Shown in pieces: positions 13,513 to 26,500 of a stretch of 41,743 nucleotides of DNA (position 1 is the first letter of the stretch; each line of letters starts with the position of its first letter). The stretch lies in IMG/VR virus record IMGVR_UViG_3300017647_000007, positions 1-41,743 of that record. One strand, given 5' to 3'. This DNA comes from a virus (taxonomy: Duplodnaviria > Caudoviricetes). The translations under genes were made by a program, and so were the position numbers. The notes under the pieces are model-generated. The model was not told the DNA's origin. It ran no database searches and was given only the letters and a program-made list of their open reading frames with translations.

Positions 13513-13959
13513 ATGGCTGCCCGCGGTACGAAGCCCACGGCGGGACCGAAACGGTTCACCGGCCAGGCAATGACCGAATGGACCGATGTGGAGAATGTCC
13601 CTTTCGAGGACGCTCCCGAATTGCCGCCCCGCGCCCCGCAAGAAGTCCTTATGGACAACGAGCGTCTGATGGTTGCGCGGGAATGGCCCAAAGAAGCTTT
13701 GCGCAAATGGCGCGCCTGGTCCCGGATGCCTCACTGCAAATTGTGGGGAGAGACCGATTGGGAATTCGCTTTCGACTGCCTGGAGGTGGCGGCGAAATTC
13801 CTGGAGACCTCCGGCGTTGGCCTCGCCACGGAATTGCGCAACCGAGAAAAGCTCCTCGGCACGACGGCTGAGTATCGCCGCGATCTGCGCATCCGCTATG
13901 TCGAGCCAGAGCAGAAAGCGAAGCTGACGGTTGTCCGAGACGACTTCAACGATCTCTGA
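13513..13959 (+). CDS. terS: Terminase small subunit
   Basis: Directly before TerL; W.AW..MPH..LW.ETDW.FA..ELRNREKLLGTT.E.RRDLRIRY; GAGG RBS. Confidence 0.88.
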   Translation: MAARGTKPTAGPKRFTGQAMTEWTDVENVPFEDAPELPPRAPQEVLMDNERLMVAREWPKEALRKWRAWSRMPHCKLWGETDWEFAFDCLEVAAKFLETSGVGLATELRNREKLLGTTAEYRRDLRIRYVEPEQKAKLTVVRDDFNDL

Positions 13960-16735
13960 GCTGCCGCCCGGGTACTGGGTTGATCCAGTCACCGGGGCCT
14001 GGTGCTCGATCCCCTGGCCGACCGATCCGGCCGAGAAGAAACACCTGATCGAGAACTCCCTCGGGCCCCTGGTGATCCGGTGGGCGGAGAACAACCTTAC
14101 CGACGAGGAGTTCGAGCAGTTCGGCCCCGGGCTGATCCACCACCTCACTGGCGAGCCCTGGAAGTTCACCCCGGGCCAGAAACGCTTCCTGATCCTGTAC
14201 TACGCCTACGACGAGAACGGCCGGTACATCTACCGATCGGCCGTGAAGCGTGGCGCGAAAGGCGTCGGCAAGGACCCCGCTGCCGCAGCTCACGGGAACA
14301 TCGAGCTCGCCGGCCCTTCTCACCTGGTGTGGGACGACGAGCTCGGCTGGACCGGTGTCCCGCACCGCATGCCCCTGGTGCAGGTCGCCTCCAACAGCGA
14401 AGCCCAGTCCAAGGACGTCCTCAGAGTCGCCAACGCGATGTGGAGCGACGAGGCTCGCGCCTGGCACGACCTGAACTGTGGCGAGACCCGCACCCTCGTG
14501 AGAGGTGGCCGCGGGCGCTTCGAGGTGCTGACCGCTTCAGAGTCGAGCGCCGAAGGTGACCCCGCTTCGTTCATCATCCTGAATGAGGCGCTGGCATTGG
14601 ACACCCCCGTCCCGACGCCGAATGGGTGGACCACGGTCGGCGACATTGAGGTGGGCGACACCGTCCTCTCTCCCGACGGCCTACCCGTGGCGGTCACCAA
14701 GACCACCGAGGTCTTTCATGATCGCCCCTGTTATCGGGTCACGTTCCGAGACGGCGACAGCATTATTGCCGATGCGGGACATCTATGGGCAGCGAAGCGC
14801 AGCGGATACCCCGAGCCTGCCAACCCTCTTAGGGTTATGACGACCGAGCAGATGCACGCATCGGGTGTGCGCTGGAAGGTGCCCGTCACCGAGCCTGTGA
14901 AGCTGCCGGAGGCAGACCTTCCCATTGACCCGTACGTACTCGGTGCGTGGCTGGGCGACGGATGCAAGAACTCGCTGATGGTTACCACGAGCCTGGCCGA
15001 TTTGCCCTGGTGGCTGGAGGAATTTGAACGCATTGGTGTACCGACTAGGCATCTTCCCAATCGGTCGCGCGAAACCGGAGAACAGTTTACGTTCGCGGGC
15101 GCGGCTCATTCGTGGGATGGTCGCGGTACAGGCATGCGCGCGGCCTTGGTCGAACTCGGAATATACGCCGAGAAGAGCATTCCGGCCGCATACCTTCGGG
15201 GCAGCTTGGATCAGCGACTAGCGCTACTGCAAGGGCTTGTCGATACGGATGGCTGTGTCGACAAGAACGGCCGGGTCATTTTCGTAAACACGAATGAGAA
15301 TCTTGCCAAAGGCGTAGCCGAGCTGGCCCAATCACTGGGGCATATCGTGCACACAAGCGTCGGCGAAGATACCCGCAAGGATTCATATCTCCCCGTCTGG
15401 CGGATCGAATGGCAGGGCGACGCTGATCTCCCTTCGGCTCGAATGCCTCGCAAGCGGGAGCGTCTGACGCCCCTCAAGCGCGGGTATCACTGGAGCTATA
15501 TCACGTCCATCGAGCCCGTCGATTCGGTGCCGGTTAAGTGCATTGGGGTCGACTCCCCGGATCATCTATTCCTCGCCGGCCAGTGGAAGGCCACGCACAA
15601 CACGCACCACATGCTGGCCTCGAATGGTGGCCATCGCGTGGCTGAGGTGGCACGCCGCAACGTCGGCAAGTCCCCGGAGTCGATCCAGGCGCGCCTGGTG
15701 GAGTACACGAACGCTCACAGCATGGGGACTGACTCGATCGCTGAGCAGTCCTTCAACGGCTGGCTCAAGCAGCAGTCGGGCCAGTACGAGAACCTCCTTC
15801 AGGACATCTTGTACGACTCGATCGAGGCTGACCCGTCCCTCGACATCAACGATCCCGAGCAGGTGGCCATTGCCCTCCGCCAGGCCTACAGTGACGCCCC
15901 CTGGGCCGACCTGCAACGCCTCCGGGCGGAAGTTATGGACCCTCGCCTGAGCCAAGCCCAGGCGATCCGCTTCTACTTAAACGGCCTCGCCTTGCGGGAG
16001 GACGCCTGGATGGACCCGCGGTGCTGGGACACGCTCGCCCGGACCCAAGAGGTCGCCGAGGGCGAGAAGATCACGATGTTCCTCGACTGCTCCAAGAGCG
16101 AGGACGCGACTGGCCTCGTCGGCGTCAGACTCTCCGATGGCTACACGTTCGTACTGGGGCTGTGGCAGCCGCCGAAGGGCGAACGCGGCAAGACCTACCT
16201 AGTGCCCCGCCACGAGGTGGACGCGGCCGTACGCGACGCCATGGACCGGTACAAGGTCATGTGGTTCGGGGTGGACCCGTCCCCGGCCCGCGACGACGAG
16301 ACCGAGGCCTTGTATTGGGCCGACCTCATCGACCAATGGCACCGGGACTTCAACAAGAAGTTGCCGATGTGGGCTTGCTCGAAGCACTCGGTCAAGTTCG
16401 ATATGCGCCTCTCTGAACAAGGCGCGGCCGATCGGCTGAAGGCCTTCACCGAAATGGCCGAACAATGCGTCCAGTGGGTGGAAGAAGAATCCGACCAGGA
16501 GAATCCTCCGCTCACTCACGACGGCAATCCCGCATTACGCCTTCACGTCCATGCCGCCCGCGCTCGGGCCAACAAGTGGGGCGTCTCCCTGGGCAAAGAA
16601 TCTCGTGACAGTAAAAAGCTTGTCGATCTCGCCGTGTGCATGGTCGGCGCACAACTAGGCCGCAGGCTAGTGCTGAATAACCCCAAGCTTCGCACTAAGC
16701 CCACCGGGCCAAGGAAAGTAGTGGTGACCTGGTGA
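13931..16735 (+). CDS. terL: Terminase large subunit with intein
   Basis: Walker A GAKGVGKD, Walker B FIILNE/THH, nuclease FLDCSKSEDATG and VDLAVCM. Confidence 0.95.
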   Translation: MSETTSTISELPPGYWVDPVTGAWCSIPWPTDPAEKKHLIENSLGPLVIRWAENNLTDEEFEQFGPGLIHHLTGEPWKFTPGQKRFLILYYAYDENGRYIYRSAVKRGAKGVGKDPAAAAHGNIELAGPSHLVWDDELGWTGVPHRMPLVQVASNSEAQSKDVLRVANAMWSDEARAWHDLNCGETRTLVRGGRGRFEVLTASESSAEGDPASFIILNEALALDTPVPTPNGWTTVGDIEVGDTVLSPDGLPVAVTKTTEVFHDRPCYRVTFRDGDSIIADAGHLWAAKRSGYPEPANPLRVMTTEQMHASGVRWKVPVTEPVKLPEADLPIDPYVLGAWLGDGCKNSLMVTTSLADLPWWLEEFERIGVPTRHLPNRSRETGEQFTFAGAAHSWDGRGTGMRAALVELGIYAEKSIPAAYLRGSLDQRLALLQGLVDTDGCVDKNGRVIFVNTNENLAKGVAELAQSLGHIVHTSVGEDTRKDSYLPVWRIEWQGDADLPSARMPRKRERLTPLKRGYHWSYITSIEPVDSVPVKCIGVDSPDHLFLAGQWKATHNTHHMLASNGGHRVAEVARRNVGKSPESIQARLVEYTNAHSMGTDSIAEQSFNGWLKQQSGQYENLLQDILYDSIEADPSLDINDPEQVAIALRQAYSDAPWADLQRLRAEVMDPRLSQAQAIRFYLNGLALREDAWMDPRCWDTLARTQEVAEGEKITMFLDCSKSEDATGLVGVRLSDGYTFVLGLWQPPKGERGKTYLVPRHEVDAAVRDAMDRYKVMWFGVDPSPARDDETEALYWADLIDQWHRDFNKKLPMWACSKHSVKFDMRLSEQGAADRLKAFTEMAEQCVQWVEEESDQENPPLTHDGNPALRLHVHAARARANKWGVSLGKESRDSKKLVDLAVCMVGAQLGRRLVLNNPKLRTKPTGPRKVVVTW
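14588..15601 (+). mobile_element. Intein (338 aa), class-3 signature, with LAGLIDADG homing endonuclease
   Basis: Starts ALALDTPVPTPNGW, ends KATHN followed by Thr; block B HLW, block F VKCIGV; LGAWLGDG and LQGLVDTDG. Confidence 0.93.
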
Positions 16736-18936: not shown

Positions 18937-19524
18937 TTGCCTGAAGAGCAGACGGAAGCTGTAGAAGCCGAAACGGCCGAGCAGACCACCGAAGCGACTG
19001 AAACCACCGAGGTCACCGAAACCGCCGAAACGGAGGAGACGGAAGACGCCGAGGTGAAGCCGACCGAGACTGTCGAGTTTTGGAAGGCGCAGGCGCGGAA
19101 GCAAGAAGAGCGCGCAAAGGCCAACGCAGCGGCAGCCAAAGAGCTAGCCGAACTGAAGGCCGCGCAAGCCTCTAAAGAGGAGCAGGACACCGAGGAGAGG
19201 GCCACCTTCGAGCGTGAGCGCGACGAAGCCAAGGCCGAAGCCCTGAAGTGGCGCGTCGCCGCCAAGCATGGCATCTCCGAGGAAGACGCCGAATTGTTCC
19301 TCACCGGTACTGATGAAGACGCCCTGACCAAGCAGGCCCAGCGATTCAACGTCCTGGTGCCGAAGACGCCTGGCAAGGGAAATGTCGTTCCCGGAGCGGG
19401 AAATCAGCCGGATAAGCCTCCGTCACTCCAGGAACAGATCCGCCTCGCTGAGCAGTCCGGGGACAAGGCTCTCGCCGCATCTCTCAAGGCGCAGCAGCTC
19501 TTCGAGATCGCCCAGCAGCAGTAA
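18937..19524 (+). CDS. Scaffolding protein
   Basis: Acidic N-terminus, WKAQARKQE.RAKAN coiled coil; GGGAG RBS before TTG at 18937. Confidence 0.88.
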   Translation: MPEEQTEAVEAETAEQTTEATETTEVTETAETEETEDAEVKPTETVEFWKAQARKQEERAKANAAAAKELAELKAAQASKEEQDTEERATFERERDEAKAEALKWRVAAKHGISEEDAELFLTGTDEDALTKQAQRFNVLVPKTPGKGNVVPGAGNQPDKPPSLQEQIRLAEQSGDKALAASLKAQQLFEIAQQQ

Positions 19525-19562
19525 TTCAACCCGCGCATTAAGCGCGCCCGAAAGGACTAAAC

Positions 19563-20516
19563 ATGGCCGGTATCACCGGACAGGGCAACACCTACAACCT
19601 GCCCAACTACGTCGGAGAACTGTTCTCCGCGTCTCCCGAGGACACCCCGTTCCTCTCCGCCATCGGTGGCCTGACTGGCGGCGAATCCGCCAACAGCACC
19701 GTGTTCACGTGGCAGTCGTACGACCTGCGTGACGCCGAGGACGATCGTCAGGCGCTTGAGGGTGCCGCCGCCCCGGACGCCGAGGCGCGTGTCCGCGTCA
19801 ACGGCTCGAACGTCGTTGAGATCCACCACGAGGCCGTTGAGGTCAGCTACACCAAGCGTGCCGCGACCGGCCTGTACGCCGCGACTGGCACCGGCGTGAA
19901 CCCGGTGCAGGACGAGCTGGGCTGGCAGCTGACCCAGGCGTTCAAGCAGATCGCCCGCGACGTCGAGAAGTCGTTCATCACCGGCACCTACAACCTGCCT
20001 GCGAACAACAGCACCGCTCGCCGCACCCGCGGCCTGCTGGAAGCCATTTCGACCAACGTGGTGGATCTGGACAGCGAGGCCCTGTCGGCCGACGACGTGC
20101 TCGACCTGATGCAGACCGTGTGGGAAGCCGGTGGCATCCAGGAAGGCGAGACCCGCACCCTGATCTGCGGCGCGTCGGTCAAGCGCCAGCTGAGCAAGCT
20201 GTTCATCACGGACAAGAACTACCGTGAGGAAGCCCGCAACCTCGGTGGCGTCGCCGTCGAGACCATCATGACCGACTTCGGTCGCGTCAACGTGATGCTC
20301 GATCGTTACGTCCCGGCCACCGACCTGGTCGTCGTGTCGCTCGAGGAATGCGCTCCCGTGTTCCTGGCGCACCCGGAGAAGGGCCACTTCTTCGCCGAGC
20401 CGCTCGCCAAGACCGGCGCTGCGGACCGCGTCCAGATCTACGGCGAGATCGGCCTGAAGTACGGCAACGAGCGCAAGCACGGCCGCATCAAGGAAATCGG
20501 CGTCGCCGGTAGCTAA
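19563..20516 (+). CDS. Major capsid protein
   Basis: TYNLPNYVGELF..DTPFLSAIGG..RTRGLL..IYGEIGLKYGNE; strong codon bias, AAGGA RBS. Confidence 0.93.
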   Translation: MAGITGQGNTYNLPNYVGELFSASPEDTPFLSAIGGLTGGESANSTVFTWQSYDLRDAEDDRQALEGAAAPDAEARVRVNGSNVVEIHHEAVEVSYTKRAATGLYAATGTGVNPVQDELGWQLTQAFKQIARDVEKSFITGTYNLPANNSTARRTRGLLEAISTNVVDLDSEALSADDVLDLMQTVWEAGGIQEGETRTLICGASVKRQLSKLFITDKNYREEARNLGGVAVETIMTDFGRVNVMLDRYVPATDLVVVSLEECAPVFLAHPEKGHFFAEPLAKTGAADRVQIYGEIGLKYGNERKHGRIKEIGVAGS

Positions 20517-20531
20517 CACTAGGAGCCATTC

Positions 20532-20900
20532 GTGACCGTCACTCTCACTGTCGATGACCTGACGCCTTTCGCGCCAGACATCGACGAATCCAAGGCCGAA
20601 CTCATGATTGAGGACGCTATGGCCTTGGCGGCACGAGTGGCACCCTGCATCAACGACGAGGACTTCGCGTACCCGGGAGCTGCGAAAGCTGTTCTCCGGG
20701 GCGCGATCCTGCGTTGGAATGAGCAGGGCACTGGTGCCGGCCCCGCGCTGGTCGCGGGCATTTTCCAGCAGACCCCCAACTCTCAGCCGAGGCGGAACCT
20801 GTTCTACCCGTCTGAGATTGCGGAGTTGCAGTCGATGTGCGGCGGTGGTCGCGGTAAGGCTTTCGCGATCGACACATTTCCTCCGGTGGAGGATGAATGA
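20532..20900 (+). CDS. Head-to-tail adaptor
   Basis: Position; IEDAMALAARVAPCI, AKAVLRGAILRW. Confidence 0.82.
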   Translation: MTVTLTVDDLTPFAPDIDESKAELMIEDAMALAARVAPCINDEDFAYPGAAKAVLRGAILRWNEQGTGAGPALVAGIFQQTPNSQPRRNLFYPSEIAELQSMCGGGRGKAFAIDTFPPVEDE

Positions 20901-21235
20901 CCTTTCCGACCCCTTTCACGGTCGGGCATGCGAAGTTCACTGGTACAGGCATAGACAACCTCGGCAATGACGTCGAGACCTGGGCCTCGCCAGTGGACGT
21001 GGCGGTGATCGGCTGGCATGCGAGCTTCCTCGAAACGCTGGCCGGTCACACCTCACAGGTGGAGTCGGACATCGACCTGATGATCCCGCCCACCTTGACG
21101 GTGTCCGTCCAGGACCGATTCTCCCTGCCCGGCTACAACCACCTGTTCGAGGTGGTGGCCATCGAGGACTACAACCACGGCTTCCACCAATGGAAACCGG
21201 GCTCGGTGGTCAAGCTGAAGAAGGTGACTGGCTAA
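20897..21235 (+). CDS. Head-to-tail stopper
   Basis: D.LGN...W..P motif, DRF.LPG..FEV, LKKVTG end. Confidence 0.82.
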   Translation: MTFPTPFTVGHAKFTGTGIDNLGNDVETWASPVDVAVIGWHASFLETLAGHTSQVESDIDLMIPPTLTVSVQDRFSLPGYNHLFEVVAIEDYNHGFHQWKPGSVVKLKKVTG

Positions 21236-21510
21236 TGGCGAAATCCAAGATCACGTTCAACAAGGCGGCTTGGAACGCCCTCGCCAAGGAGGTTGTCGAG
21301 ACCGAAGGCGTCAGGCGCATGAAACGTGTTGCCGACGCCTGCAACGGCAACGTCGAGGAAGACGGGTACAAGGTGAGCGTCGAGGGCGACGAACCGCTGA
21401 ACAAGCGGGACTATCGCGCCACGGTCATCACGTCCGACTACGAGTCGATGCGGGACAACGCTGAGCACAACCGTCTGGTCTCCGAATTCCACCAGGCCGG
21501 AGGCGACTGA
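21235..21510 (+). CDS. Neck / tail completion protein
   Basis: TAATG coupling; MAKSKITFN..YRATVIT..DNAEHNRL. Confidence 0.75.
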   Translation: MAKSKITFNKAAWNALAKEVVETEGVRRMKRVADACNGNVEEDGYKVSVEGDEPLNKRDYRATVITSDYESMRDNAEHNRLVSEFHQAGGD

Positions 21511-21884
21511 TGCCCATTCCCTACGCCCCCAAGGTCGTTAGGGAGTACCTCGCGTCGGTTCTGCCTGCGGATGTGCGGGTCGCCACCAAGGTGCCCGCCA
21601 ATCGTCCCGCGAAGCTGGTGACCATCACCACCGTCCCGACAGGCGACTCCAACAACCTTGTCCTCTCGCCGCGCCGCCTGATTATCCAGGTGTGGCACGC
21701 CGACGAGGAGACCGCTGGCGAGCTGGCCGAAACGGTCTGCGCCCACATGCGAAACGCACGATTCATCCCCGGCAATGGAATACGCAACGTAACCATCGTC
21801 GGCACACCAGGTCGGTTTGACGCCCCTAACGACCCCACGCCTCGTTTCCAAATGACCGTGGACGTCCTTCTGCGCTCTGCCTAA
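21510..21884 (+). CDS. Tail terminator
   Basis: VATKVPANRP, LIIQVW, PRFQMTV; precedes the major tail gene. Confidence 0.82.
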   Translation: MPIPYAPKVVREYLASVLPADVRVATKVPANRPAKLVTITTVPTGDSNNLVLSPRRLIIQVWHADEETAGELAETVCAHMRNARFIPGNGIRNVTIVGTPGRFDAPNDPTPRFQMTVDVLLRSA

Positions 21885-21942
21885 AGACCTCCCAAACCCT
21901 TTCAGGCCCTGGCTGCAACTTGTGCCCGGAAAGGGGCCCTAA

Positions 21943-22527
21943 ATGGCGTCTGACGTCAGCAATGTTTACGCGGCCGAACCGCTCGCGACCGGCTCTGCCC
22001 TGGTTGCGCCGCTCGGCACCACCCTGCCCACCTCTGCCACCGATGCCCTGGACGAAGACTTCGTCGATCTCGGCTACGTCGGCGAGGACGGCTTCACCGA
22101 GACCATGGAGCGCACGACCGAAGAGAAGAAGTCCTTCGGTGGCGACACGGTCAAGGTTCTCCAGACCGAATACAACCACAGCTTCAGCTTCGTTCTGCTT
22201 GAGTCCACGAATGCTGATGTGCTGAAGGCCGTTTACGGCGCTTCGAACGTCGAGGTCGCCCCGGCCAACGGCGTGCACGGCACGCAGATCTCGATCAAGA
22301 AGAACAGCAAGAAGCTGCCGCACATGTCGTGGGTGATCGACACCCAGGACTCGGAGCTGGGCGCTCGCTACCGCACCGTGATCCCCGATGGGCAGATCAC
22401 CGAGGTTGGCGACGTCACCATCGTTCACTCGGACACCATCTCGTACGAGGTGACGGTCAAGTGCTTCAAGAACGACGCCGGTGACTACGTCTACACCTAC
22501 ACCGATGACGGCGTTCTCGGCTCCTAA
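21943..22527 (+). CDS. Major tail protein
   Basis: APLGTTLPT..LGYVGEDG..FGGDTV..VIPDGQITE. Confidence 0.93.
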   Translation: MASDVSNVYAAEPLATGSALVAPLGTTLPTSATDALDEDFVDLGYVGEDGFTETMERTTEEKKSFGGDTVKVLQTEYNHSFSFVLLESTNADVLKAVYGASNVEVAPANGVHGTQISIKKNSKKLPHMSWVIDTQDSELGARYRTVIPDGQITEVGDVTIVHSDTISYEVTVKCFKNDAGDYVYTYTDDGVLGS

Positions 22528-22534
22528 GTAAGCC

Positions 22535-22596
22535 CCGGCGGGGGATGTTCTCTACACGCAGCCAGGGCCGCATCCCCCGCCGGCCACACTGGCTGC
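22535..22596 (+). promoter_or_regulatory. Intergenic hairpin / H-type pseudoknot candidate
   Basis: 13-bp stem 22535-22547/22571-22583; loop GCAGCCAG complementary to CTGGCTGC at 22589-22596. Confidence 0.65.
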
Positions 22597-22616
22597 CCCC
22601 AAATCTGAAGGGTCGC

Positions 22617-23258
22617 ATGTTCGTTTACAGATTCGAACACGACGGCACCCAGCACTCTGTTGAGCTAAAGCCGTTCGACCAGATCCCCATGGAAGCGCTC
22701 GTCAACGATCAGCTGGCGATGCTGGAGTGGGCCATGACGCCGGAGGGCATCGCCCTCATGGACGTCCTCCCCACCCGTGTGGTGAAGGGACTCATCAAAG
22801 AGTGGCAGAAGGAAATCGGCCTCAGCGAGGTCCTCGGTCTCGTGGACCTGATCTCGAATCACAAGGATGCCCTCGCGGCCGACCTGATTAACGCGGGAAT
22901 GCGTCTGCGGGACTTCCCGTCCGAACGGCACACCTGGTACGACCTGAAGGTCTTTGTGAGGCACCTGGACCGCGATTCCGCGCTGTTCCGGGAGATGTAC
23001 CCCGACAAGGCTGACTGGACGATGACCAACCGCCTTCTGGCCATGGTCGTCAACTGTCTGCGGTTGATGATGTGGTTCAAGACGAAGGACGGCCAGAAGG
23101 GGCGGAAGCGCCCGCCCATGATCGGCCCCGACTGGGCCGAGAAGAACACGAAGCGTCCCGGCTCCGACTGCAAACCGACGCCGATCTCACAGATCAAGAA
23201 GCCCGAGATCGCGAAGCCGGAGGGGCGCATGAGAAAGCTCAGAAATCTCTTCAAGTAA
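22617..23258 (+). CDS. Tail assembly chaperone, in-frame G-T-like fusion
   Basis: G-like N-half ending IKEWQ; T-like C-half ALAADLI.AG.RLRD..TW.DL..WT..LLA..W.KTKDGQKGR.RP. Confidence 0.78.
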   Translation: MFVYRFEHDGTQHSVELKPFDQIPMEALVNDQLAMLEWAMTPEGIALMDVLPTRVVKGLIKEWQKEIGLSEVLGLVDLISNHKDALAADLINAGMRLRDFPSERHTWYDLKVFVRHLDRDSALFREMYPDKADWTMTNRLLAMVVNCLRLMMWFKTKDGQKGRKRPPMIGPDWAEKNTKRPGSDCKPTPISQIKKPEIAKPEGRMRKLRNLFK

Positions 23259-23267
23259 AGGCTGCAA

Positions 23268-23528
23268 ATGAGTTTCAAGTACACCGTCCAGATCCCGAAT
23301 GAAGACGGCGAAGGCGTCGAGGACGTCGAACTGGTTTTCAAAGACATTAAGGATCTGCCGGTCGGCATCATCCGCCGCCACCGCCGCGACGTCGAGGCCC
23401 AGATGTGGGCCACCTTCGAGTGGGGCCTCTCGCCCGAACACCTGGAGCTGTTCGACCGCATGCCCGCGAGCGGTTTCCGCGACGTTCTGAAGGCCTGGCA
23501 AGAGTCGGAAGACGCCGAAGACGAATAA
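23268..23528 (+). CDS. Tail assembly chaperone, G-like
   Basis: LPVGIIRRHR..FEWGL..FDRMP..LKAWQ; precedes the tape measure gene. Confidence 0.72.
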   Translation: MSFKYTVQIPNEDGEGVEDVELVFKDIKDLPVGIIRRHRRDVEAQMWATFEWGLSPEHLELFDRMPASGFRDVLKAWQESEDAEDE

Positions 23529-23564
23529 CCCAACACCTGGCCTTAGCCGGGGAGGAGTCCAGTA

Positions 23565-26500
23565 GTGTCAACCGAACTCGCCTCGGGTTACATCTCCCTA
23601 TCCGTCAAGTATGGCGACGCGATGGAGCAGATCACCAAAGATCTGCTTGGTCTCGACAAGACCGCCAAGCGTGCCGGTGATGATGCGGGGAAGTCCCTCA
23701 ACAAGTCCCTGAGCAAGTCCATGAAGGTGGACTCCGGGGACGCCAAGCGCGGCCTGTCCGGTATCACCAACGCGGCCGACGACACCGGCAAGAAGGCTGG
23801 CAAGAGGCTCGGCTCCGGCATGCTGGACGGGGCCAAGACGCAGTTCAAGTCCGGAGCCAGCAAGATCACTGGCGGCCTCGGCTCTGCCGGAACCGATGCG
23901 GCACAGAACTTCCTGGACGGCTTCGGTGGCCCGATCGGCAAGATCGGCAGCAAGGCTGGGCCCATCGGTCTGGCCTTGACCGCCGCGGTCGGCCTCGGCT
24001 TCAGCGCTGGTGCTCTGATCGCCAAGCAGGTCTTCGCGGGCATGGAGAAGGAGCAGCAGCAGGCGAACTTCGCCGCCAAGCTCGGCCTCACCCCGGAGCA
24101 GGCTGCACCGCTCGCCAAGGGCGCTGGAAAGGCCTACGCCAACAACTTCGGCGAGAGCATCGCCGACAACATGACTACTGCCGAGCAGGCCGTTCAGGGC
24201 GGTCTACTGAGGGCCACGGCCTCGGCCGAAGAGAGTCAGAGGGTCATCGAGGGCGTCAACACCGTCTCTCAGGTGACGGGTGCCGACAGCCAGGAGATCA
24301 TCCGGGCTACCGGCCAGCTGCTGCGTACCGGGCTCGTGAAGGACTACGACGAGGCGTTCGACCTCATCGTCAAGTCTCAGCAGAAGGGCCTGAACAAGTC
24401 GGAGGATTTGTTCGACACCATCAACGAGTACGGCACCCAGTGGCGCAAGCTCGGCCTCGACGGCGAAGAAGCCATGGGCCTCATCAACCAGGCCGTCCAG
24501 AACGGTGCCCGTGACTCCGACGTTGCAGCCGACGCCATCAAGGAATTCTCCATCCGGGCCATCGACGGCTCGAAGACCACCACTGAGGCATACGAGGCGC
24601 TCGGCCTGAACGCCGAGGAGATGGCGCAGAACTTCGCCAAGGGCGGAGATGACGCCAAGCGCTCCTTCGGCCAGGTGCTCGACAGCCTCCGCAAAATCGA
24701 AGATCCGGTCAAGCGCAACGCCATTGCCGTGGCACTGTTCGGCACGCAAGCCGAAGACCTCGGTGACGCACTCAACCACATGGACCTCGACACCGCCACG
24801 GCGGAAATGGAGGGGCTCGAAGGGGCAACCCAGCGGGCTGCCGACACCATGGGCGGAACGGCCGCAGGTTCTTTCGAGTCTGCGAAGCGCACCATTGAGG
24901 TCGCAGTCGGGGACATGCAGAAGCAGCTCGCCGACGTGCTGGCCCCGACCCTCCAGAAGTTCGCTGACTGGTTTGTCGCTCACGAGGATGACGTCGTCAA
25001 CTTCTTCACGAAGGTCGGCCAGGGTGCCCTGTGGGCCGTGGAATCGGTGGTTCGCTTCGTCGGTGACGTGATCGACGCTGTCGCCGACCTTGTTGGCGCC
25101 TTCGGTGATGTCCAGGGTTGGGTTCTCAAGTTCCAGGCGTGGCAGGCGGATCTCCGTGGCGACCATGAGACCGCCAACGAGTTTCGCGCTCAGGCGGAGG
25201 AGGCCTTCGGCCTTGGCGAGAGTCTGCACAAGACCGCCGCCGAGTGGAAGGGGTATGCCGACGGTCTCGCCGAATCCCGCGAAGAGATGGGCAAGAACCA
25301 GGAGCAGGCGCAGAAGGTCAGCGAGGCCCTCAAGGTCCTCAAGAACGATCTCGTCACACTGCCCGATGGCAAGACCATTGTCCTCAAGGACAACTCTGAA
25401 GAGACCAAGAGGCGCATGGAGGAACTCGGCTTCGCGGTCGAGCGCCTCCCCGATGGCAACCTCACGATCCGTGTGGCCTACAAGGACCAGAACGGCAACA
25501 ACATTGACCCGGGCCAGCTGGGAGTCTCTCAGAGGCAGCAGTCGGCTGCGCAGGGCAACGAGGGCCCCCGTGGCGCATACGCCAGTGGTGGCGTCGTCCG
25601 TGGCCCGGGTACCGGCACATCGGACTCGATTCTGGCCTGGCTCTCCAACGGCGAGGGCGTTGTTACCGCCAAGGCGATGCGTAATGGTGGCGCGGCCCTC
25701 GTCGCGGCGCTAAACGCTGGCTGGACCCCTCCGGCCGAGATGCTGCACGGCATGATCCCCGGTTTCGCCGAGGGTCTAAGTCCCGGTGCGGATTTCCTGC
25801 GCTCAACAGTGTTGCGCATGTGGCCGCAGATCACCACGATCGGCGGCCGGCGCTCCGAGGATGGCTACGGCGAGCACTCGTCGGGCAACGCTTTGGACAT
25901 CATGATCCCGGGCTACCAGGGGGCCGAGGGTGTCGCTCTCGGCAACTCGATCCTGGCCTTCCTCCAGAAGAACGCCTCGGCGCTCGGCGTGGACGGAATC
26001 ATCTGGCGGCAGACGTCTTACGGCTACGGCGGGTCACTAACCTCCGGCAAGCAGATGTCCGATCGCGGCAGCGACACCCAGAACCACATGGACCACGTCC
26101 ACGTCATCCTGGGCAAGGGCCGTGGCGTCGGCGCTGAGCCGGTGCAGGCCCCCTCCGTGGCGCTCTCCGCGCCTGGCAGCGTGTCTCCCTCTGGCAACGG
26201 CAGTGTGAAGCTGCGCGAGGCCAGCGACAAGGTCACCGACCTGGAGAGCCGCGTCAGCGTTGCTGAGCAAGAGCTGTCGGAGATCGAAAGCGATCCCAAA
26301 GCCAAGGAAAGCGCCAAGCAAAAGAAGCGCAACGAGGTTGAGAAGCTCAAGCGAGATCTTCAGCAGGCCAAGGACGACAAGGCCACGCTCGAACAAGAAC
26401 TCGCCAACGGCGACGGCGAAAGCGGCGGCGGCAGGAACTCTGGCGACGACCCGTTCTCGAAGATCACCGATGGCCTGAGCGATTTGGCAGACCTCGCCAT

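What the first reader, a model, noticed from the sequence alone, without database searches (positions are those of the whole stretch)
21907..23270. One hairpin loop can pair with three different gene leaders in the tail operon
Seen: the loop of the 13-bp hairpin after the major tail gene contains GCAGCCAGGG (22558-22567). It is complementary to CCCTGGCTGC in the major tail leader (21907-21916, 10 bp), CTGGCTGC in the G-T leader (22589-22596, 8 bp, H-type pseudoknot) and GGCTGC in the RBS region of the G gene (23260-23265). Inference: mutually exclusive RNA pairings that set tube : G-T : G stoichiometry, possibly substituting for the missing frameshift.
Basis: partly seen in the sequence, partly recalled or inferred. 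Interest (0 to 1): 0.7.

Follow-up and report, generated by a model that had tools for sequence, protein, structure and literature searches.

The report
Shared-loop RNA switch around tail-tube gene
A hairpin right after this phage's tail-tube gene has a loop that matches, base for base, the tube gene's own leader and sites in front of the tail-chaperone gene, and loop and partners change together across many related phages, so it is likely an undescribed RNA switch that would balance tube against chaperone production; it does not replace the chaperone frameshift.

Summary
The matches are real. The loop (22558-22569) complements the tube leader over 12 bp (not 10) and the site 5 nt behind the hairpin over 8 bp. 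Among 89 dereplicated relatives with a post-tube hairpin, 43 match their tube leader at 8 bp or more (background 1.6%). Of 86 with a chaperone start, 64 match its ribosome-binding region at 6 bp or more (17 of 311 other starts). Loop and partners switch among 12 sequence words with compensatory changes, use the same loop bases, and the leader site lies inside a Shine-Dalgarno-hiding hairpin. No Rfam family or paper was found. Most likely this is a translation-initiation switch; no experiment supports it yet. Corrections: 61 of 68 element-bearing loci keep the -1 overlap typical of frameshifting, so it does not replace the frameshift. In this phage the copy at the first chaperone gene has decayed. 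The 6-bp site at G probably arrived with an acquired G gene, and its function is unproven. This scan noted similar elements before on other genomes (e1-6025091, e1-7983037).

The parts
21897..21935 (+). Tube-gene leader hairpin: CCCUUUC (21897-21903) is predicted to pair with GAAAGGG (21929-21935), hiding the Shine-Dalgarno sequence
   Evidence: a predicted Shine-Dalgarno-hiding stem in most of the 40 leader-site relatives folded
21905..21916 (+). Leader site, 12 nt complementary to the post-tube loop; lies in the upper stem and loop of the leader hairpin
   Evidence: I19; covariation
21943..22527 (+). Major tail (tube) protein gene, 194 aa
   Evidence: phrog_117; PF25681
22535..22583 (+). Post-tube hairpin, 13-14 bp stem starting 7 nt after the stop codon, 21-nt loop, no U tract
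   Evidence: I15
22558..22569 (+). 3' part of the loop, shared by all partner sites
22589..22596 (+). Proximal site, 8 nt complementary to the loop (predicted pseudoknot), ending 21 nt before the G'-T start
   Evidence: 72 of 86 loci have such a site at 6 bp or more
22607..22616 (+). Ribosome-binding region of G'-T, where relatives carry a loop-complementary copy; decayed here (3 bp Watson-Crick run)
22617..23258 (+). In-frame fused chaperone G'-T, 213 aa, no X_XXY_YYZ slippery heptamer
   Evidence: (phrog_1326); same letters in other assemblies
23260..23265 (+). GGCTGC between Shine-Dalgarno and start of the free G gene; same position as the ribosome-site copy in relatives; function here unproven
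23268..23528 (+). Separate short chaperone G, 86 aa, closest to G of L196

Best explanation
The loop of the hairpin behind the tail-tube gene is complementary to the tube gene's own leader and to sites before the tail-chaperone gene, with matched changes across relatives; these pairings likely form in the mRNA one at a time and would set how often ribosomes start on the tube and chaperone genes. Shown by sequence comparison: the complementarity, its fixed positions, the compensatory changes, and the shared loop bases. Inferred steps: (1) Core device, in most relatives. The loop toggles between a copy lying between the Shine-Dalgarno sequence and the start codon of the chaperone gene, which would block initiation, and a proximal copy of similar strength, which would act as a decoy. 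(2) Add-on, in about half, this phage included. The strongest partner lies in the upper stem and loop of a hairpin that hides the tube Shine-Dalgarno sequence. Pairing there would loosen that hairpin and draw the loop off the chaperone sites, so an intact transcript favours both genes, and ribosome traffic on the tube leader or at the tube stop codon (median 8 nt from the stem) would shift the balance. (3) In this phage the device is probably reduced to leader site against proximal site; the 6-bp copy at the free G gene is likely inherited with that gene and at most a weak partner.
For: Loop versus tube leader: 43 of 89 at >=8 bp and 38 of 89 at >=10 bp, against 1.6% and 0.06% of 10,395 same-locus windows and 0 of 89 in a same-sense control (the 89 include the window's own sequence, L001). 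Loop versus chaperone ribosome-binding region: 64 of 86 at >=6 bp against 17 of 311 other starts. The copy ends within 5 nt of the start codon in 60 of 64. All three sites occur in 30 of the 41 loci with a leader site. Twelve word classes; loops tested on leaders of another class reach 9 bp in 6 of 1,432 pairs. In 20 disjoint pairs, 36 of 63 changed cells are compensatory, and 13 of 20 pairs have at least one. Window against L002/Nebkiss: one base changes together in leader, loop and proximal site. Shared loop bases: 37 of 37, 31 of 32 and 52 of 62 site pairs overlap by >=4 nt. Internal mismatches at the ribosome site are G-U 19 times and A-C 7 times, as expected for sense-strand RNA. Leaders with the site have more occluded Shine-Dalgarno regions (9.8 against 6.2 kcal/mol), and blocking the site lowers the cost by >=1.5 in 21 of 40, against 3 of 40 control blocks. 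Downstream copies are not yet transcribed when a terminator would act, which points to a step after transcription (logic).
Against: No expression, probing or mutant data. In this phage the predicted opening of the tube Shine-Dalgarno region on binding is only 0.3 kcal/mol (10.4 to 10.1), the 7-bp lower stem persists in most folds, and 19 of 40 relatives fall by less than 1.5. The G-U test gives no signal for the leader site (4 against 4). In the 20 pairs, 23 of 63 changed cells break a pair, some through alignment register shifts. 46 of 89 lack a leader match of 8 bp, and 11 of 100 loci had no qualifying hairpin, so the device is dispensable. The linker to the proximal site is 5 nt or less in 15 of 63, the window included, which is tight for a classic H-type fold over a 13-bp stem. 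The direction of the effect on each gene is not fixed by these data. Rows are related, which inflates counts (51 distinct loops among the 64).
Confidence: 0.55

Rival explanations
1. RNA stability or processing device: the hairpin is the protected 3' end of a processed tube mRNA, and loop-leader pairing closes that mRNA into a ring that resists nucleases or recycles ribosomes; downstream copies set cleavage or decay of the chaperone part.
For: The leader pairing is the strongest in 37 of 41 loci and brings the stop codon close to the start codon; the stem is long and GC-rich; lambda needs about 192 tube subunits per tail (PMC5009743, passage).
Against: One copy sits exactly between Shine-Dalgarno and start codon in 60 of 64, which fits control of initiation; about half of the loci have no leader site.
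Confidence: 0.17
2. Autogenous control by a protein: free chaperone G or tube protein binds and stabilises one pseudoknot state, as ribosomal protein S15 or T4 gp32 do on their mRNAs (recalled).
For: Stem length, loop layout and position are kept while the paired word varies; in this phage the ribosome-site copy sits with the free G gene and not with G'-T.
Against: No invariant nucleotide column in the 20-sequence alignment (a poor alignment); inheritance with an acquired G gene explains the G copy; no binding was tested.
Confidence: 0.1
3. Transcription attenuator: the hairpin is a terminator or pause site, and pairing of the nascent loop with the tube leader changes read-through into chaperone and tape-measure genes.
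For: A hairpin behind the major tail gene of Cluster O phages was called a likely terminator (PMC4351075, passage); the leader site exists before the loop is made.
Against: Five or more T in the 8 nt after the stem in 1 of 89; no + strand terminator-like site in 19000-24500; downstream copies cannot act at the termination step; Corndog's U-tailed hairpin lacks the pairings.
Confidence: 0.08
4. One reading: a three-way switch sets tube: G-T: G and stands in for the lost frameshift.
For: The window lacks the frameshift, and the 6-mer at G sits where relatives carry their ribosome-site copy.
Against: 61 of 68 element-bearing loci keep the -1 overlap; L257 and L260 have the same two-gene order without the element; the G site gives -13.3 kcal/mol against -29.4 and -17.1 for the other two.
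Confidence: 0.05
5. DNA-level or mutational origin: inverted repeats kept alike by template switching, or sites for inverting the tube gene, with no RNA role.
For: Leader site and loop are inverted repeats flanking the gene; nearby repeats can be homogenised without selection (general knowledge).
Against: Fixed functional positions across 12 words; G-U excess at the ribosome site; 0 minus-strand chaperone hits among the 87 of 100 loci with a hit; no joints in 4 DNA runs (contigs only, low depth).
Confidence: 0.05

Closest known systems
MS2 Min Jou long-range interaction (PMC12143590, passages seen; its role in coat-replicase coupling known from a reference title there and from recall)
   Same: A short long-range helix inside one phage mRNA that is thought to gate a downstream start site.
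   Different: There the partner lies in the coding sequence and is 7 bp. Here one intergenic hairpin loop has up to three non-coding partners on both sides of a whole gene, up to 15 bp, in dsDNA phages.
repZ/repA activator pseudoknot of IncI-alpha and IncB plasmids (recalled; no paper read)
   Same: A hairpin loop pairs with a sequence beside a ribosome-binding site, in competition with a structure that hides it.
   Different: No antisense RNA or leader peptide was looked for or seen; the loop here also has a copy inside the Shine-Dalgarno-to-start spacer and a partner 640 nt upstream.
Lambda gpG/gpGT programmed -1 frameshift (PMC5009743, passages)
   Same: Same operon and the same problem of fixing ratios among tube, G and GT; this phage encodes G-like and T-like domains.
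   Different: The RNA element acts at gene boundaries and coexists with the frameshift; this phage has separate G'-T and G genes.
[quoted passage not shown]
   Same: Chaperone forms made without frameshifting.
   Different: Here an actinophage-type siphovirus with G'-T before G, apparently assembled from two lineages.
Terminator-like hairpin behind the major tail gene of Cluster O mycobacteriophages (PMC4351075, passage)
   Same: A 12-13 bp hairpin at the same place in the operon.
   Different: That one has a U-rich tail and no loop partners (Corndog); this one has no U tract and a 21-nt loop with covarying partners.

Membership tests
Any Rfam family | Match to a covariance model at its gathering score | tested here: not met
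   Window 21400-23700: only a chance hit, E 2.8; 8 related loci: 0 hits
Intrinsic terminator | GC-rich stem followed by a U tract | tested here: not met
   Stem present; CCACACTG follows; 1 of 89 relatives has >=5 T in 8 nt. U-less actinobacterial terminators are not excluded.
H-type pseudoknot | Loop pairs with a sequence 3' of the stem, with covariation | tested here: met
   71 of 89 at >=7 bp within 60 nt against 5.5% background; words change together
H-type pseudoknot | Both helices coexist in three dimensions | not testable with these tools
   Linker of 5 nt over a 13-bp stem here is tight; needs probing
Long-range translational coupling (Min Jou or repZ type) | Pairing covers or frees a translation start region | tested here: inconclusive
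   Position met in relatives (60 of 64 end within 5 nt of the start); predicted freeing of the tube site is modest, 0.3 kcal/mol in this phage
Long-range translational coupling (Min Jou or repZ type) | Translation of one gene changes initiation of the other through the pairing | not testable with these tools
   Needs reporters with compensatory mutants
Lambda-type G/GT frameshift pair | G stop with T in the overlapping -1 frame and a slippery heptamer | tested here: not met
   G'-T is one 213-aa frame without a heptamer; same letters in other assemblies, which may share the source sample
   61 of 68 element-bearing loci keep the -1 overlap

The most novel reading that the evidence does not exclude
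A natural closed-loop mRNA in a bacterial cell. The hairpin loop 30 nt behind the tube stop codon docks 26 nt before the tube start codon, opens the ribosome-binding site and hands finishing ribosomes back to the start. The chaperone gene's ribosomes control the docking by displacing the loop from their own start site, so a downstream gene switches on the gene upstream of it.
Probability: 0.15. Interest if true: 0.88.

Novelty: new variant of a known kind. Interest (0 to 1): 0.68.

Why it matters
How long-tailed phages balance hundreds of tube subunits against their assembly chaperones is explained so far only for the G : GT ratio. This element offers a testable RNA mechanism for the tube : chaperone ratio. 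It occurs in cultured M. smegmatis and Gordonia phages (full form in Nebkiss, Soul22, BritBrat, Phabuloso; downstream-only form in D29, Bxb1, Che8, Angel), so a few point mutants can test it. It would be a new cis-regulatory RNA family whose paired word is free to change, which may be why sequence-based screens could miss it. It also matters for phage engineering: moving tail genes without their matched leader and loop could upset tail assembly.

Tried and rejected
Rfam: nothing. Nine paper searches found no description of the element. The library lacks most subscription journals, and I opened no supplement of the large structured-RNA screens, where it could stand as an unnamed candidate. Sequencing runs: no RNA holder listed; four DNA runs of at most two samples, possibly the source, show no differences or joints. 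A plain MAFFT alignment of 20 post-tube regions misaligned several rows, so I built no covariance model and made no count on it. The broad tube alignment A1 was too diverse for locus scans; the narrower A2 was used. The genome scan gave only 2 loci. The careful tube tree did not finish; the quick tree was used. The automatic hairpin picker chose by stem strength only and took another hairpin than the loop-bearing one in a few loci (L115, L124, L259 by eye), so counts are probably low. Xu 2013 was not held. Of six well-known phages fetched by accession, three had the 8-bp downstream pairing, none had the leader site, Corndog had no pairing, and Cjw1 and phiC31 gave no qualifying hairpin. Rejected: frameshift substitute, classic terminator, invertible segment.

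Full report
Observation. The region is the tail operon of an uncultured actinophage-type siphovirus: tail terminator, major tail protein (21943-22527, phrog_117, PF25681), a 213-aa chaperone (22617-23258, phrog_1326), an 86-aa chaperone (23268-23528) and tape measure. Its closest named tube protein is that of Mycobacterium phage Nebkiss, 83% identical. A hairpin of 13 perfect pairs (22535-22583) starts 7 nt after the tube stop. Its loop bases 22558-22569 complement the tube leader at 21905-21916 over 12 bp, the longest partner in the window; 22589-22596 over 8 bp; and 23260-23265 over 6 bp. The duplex energies are -29.4, -17.1 and -13.3 kcal/mol. In the window alone the 6-mer is at chance level (37 against 37), and other 12-13 nt inverted repeats exist, so the case rests on relatives.

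Comparative set. Of 269 loci, 262 had a tube hit, 248 had enough flank, 133 were distinct, and 100 remained after clustering on the flanks; L001 is the window's own sequence. The hairpin was picked by stem strength alone, blind to partners: 89 had one and 11 were dropped.

The loop pairs with the tube leader. The longest Watson-Crick run between loop and the 60 nt before the tube start was >=8 in 43 of 89 and >=10 in 38 of 89. Background was 1.6% and 0.06% of 10,395 windows from the same loci, and a same-sense control gave 0 of 89. The site mostly ends 21-30 nt before the start. The 42 loci with >=9 bp fall into 12 word classes that I defined from the words. Loops tested on leaders of another class reach 9 bp in 6 of 1,432 pairs, and the own leader is the best or joint best of 89 in 36 of 42. 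In 40 of these loci, aligned separately for leader and hairpin, a scan of all column pairs returned this helix first: 96% paired against a mean of 66% and a maximum of 74% in 200 row shuffles, with up to four Watson-Crick pair types per column. These 40 were selected for having the match, so this shows covariation, not frequency. In 20 disjoint pairs chosen by tube identity, 156 of 220 cells were unchanged, 36 compensatory, 4 kept by a wobble, 23 broken and 1 a gap; 13 pairs had a compensatory change. Against L002, whose flanks read the same as those of Nebkiss, the window differs by one base changed together in leader, loop and proximal site. L089 and L090, 86% identical in tube protein, differ by four compensatory changes.

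The loop pairs with the chaperone leader. A run of >=7 bp within 60 nt behind the hairpin occurs in 71 of 89, against 5.5% background and 6 of 89 in the sense control. With a chaperone start assigned blind to pairing in 86 of 89, a copy at -18 to +3 reaches >=6 bp in 64, against 17 of 311 other starts; a proximal copy reaches >=6 bp in 72; all three sites occur in 30 of the 41 with a leader site. The ribosome-site copy spans about -9 to -3 and ends within 5 nt of the start in 60 of 64; these 64 hold 51 distinct loops. The partners use the same loop bases: overlap of >=4 nt in 37 of 37, 31 of 32 and 52 of 62 comparisons. Mean energies in leader-site loci are -26.6 (leader), -20.5 (proximal), -18.4 (ribosome site) and -10.0 (tube ribosome site, control); without a leader site, proximal and ribosome copies are about equal, -14.0 and -14.6. 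Internal mismatches favour G-U over A-C at the ribosome site (19 to 7) and overall (32 to 16, p 0.03) but not at the leader (4 to 4). D29, Bxb1 and Che8 have the 8-bp downstream pairing and, read by eye, a wobble-containing copy over the ribosome site in D29 and Bxb1; none of the six phages fetched has the leader site.

The leader site lies in a hairpin that hides the tube Shine-Dalgarno sequence. The predicted cost of opening -17 to -5 averages 9.8 kcal/mol in 40 leader-site loci (2 of 42 skipped because the site overlapped the window) and 6.2 in 47 others. Blocking the site lowers it to 7.9; the drop is >=1.5 in 21 of 40, against 3 of 40 for control blocks. In this phage the drop is only 0.3, and the lower stem persists in most folds. 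Activation of the tube gene is therefore suggested, not shown. A 12-15 bp duplex exceeds one helical turn, so forming it between two closed loops probably needs the weaker leader stem to open at least briefly (inference).

Not a classic terminator, not a frameshift substitute. Only 1 of 89 hairpins has a T-rich tail; the stem begins a median 8 nt after the stop, within 14 nt in 72 of 89. Downstream copies cannot affect termination at the hairpin. Of 68 element-bearing loci with a T hit, 61 have the -1 G/T overlap, 1 (this phage) is fused, and 6 are otherwise. Nebkiss, Soul22 and BritBrat are annotated with joined chaperone frames and carry all three sites.

The third site in this phage. The 213-aa gene is an in-frame G'-T with no slippery heptamer, identical in other assemblies (these may share the source). 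Its ribosome-site copy has decayed to 3 bp. In a quick tree of 33 G domains, G' groups with L002 and L003 (support 98), while the free G groups with L196 (support 92; 69% identity against 44% to Nebkiss G). The tape-measure start is also closest to L196 among the loci whose flank reached it. L196 carries a GGCTGC-class loop and ribosome-site copy. The simplest reading is a mosaic in which G, its ribosome site and the tape measure came from such a relative. The 6-mer is then at a homologous position, but no close relative with the same order was found to test whether it is maintained; L257 and L260 have the order without the element.

Mechanism. I commit to a translation-initiation switch (0.55). 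One loop is shared between a blocking site at the chaperone start, a proximal decoy and, in about half the phages, a site in the tube leader whose binding would loosen the tube ribosome site and free the chaperone start. Complementarity, position, covariation and shared bases are shown; pairing in the cell and every effect on expression are inferred.

Known systems. It works like the MS2 Min Jou interaction (PMC12143590, passages) and the repZ pseudoknot (recalled), but is a member of neither and matches no Rfam family. The lambda G: GT ratio of 30:1 and about 192 tube subunits come from passages of PMC5009743. A hairpin at this place in Cluster O phages was called a likely terminator (PMC4351075, passage). 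Frameshift-free chaperones are reported for T4-like phages (title only). Nine searches found no description; subscription papers and the supplements of structured-RNA screens were not seen. This scan reported like elements on other genomes (e1-6025091, e1-7983037, e1-9899677). Those are unchecked notes on DNA I could not see and are not counted as support.

Verdict. Observation confirmed; interpretation partly supported; new variant of a known kind; interest 0.68.

Noticed in passing
L053, L112, L196, L197, L198 (G stop at about +384 to +459 after the tube stop); L115: A G gene is followed directly, in the same frame and after a single stop, by a G'-T frame with no obvious Shine-Dalgarno sequence and, in L196 and L197, no nearby ATG (L115 is offset by one base): candidate stop read-through or re-initiation.
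   Followed up: partly
L257 and L260, behind the tube gene; window 22617-23528: G'-T followed by a separate G, as in the window, so the frameshift-free two-gene layout occurs in at least two orders in this tube family.
   Followed up: partly
window 13931-16735: A 934-aa terminase-like frame holds a LAGLIDADG domain at residues 427-478 (PF14528), probably an intein; splice motifs not checked.
   Followed up: no
L061 (Phabuloso) 1873-2016 and L079: A 47-codon frame is inserted between the tube stop and the hairpin; the hairpin again starts 3 nt after a stop codon and keeps its 12-bp match to the tube leader.
   Followed up: partly
L140 clade (16 rows), L071 (Angel), L070 (Paola): About three tandem copies of the loop complement lie before the chaperone start, with no leader site; Paola has two hairpins and was dropped by the picker.
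   Followed up: partly
window 22990-23005 and 23583-23598: A 16-nt, 94% inverted repeat links the G'-T coding sequence to the first codons of the tape-measure gene (I8); conservation not tested.
   Followed up: no
window 23536-23551: A small hairpin in front of the tape-measure Shine-Dalgarno sequence; folding is not better than shuffles (z -0.36).
   Followed up: no
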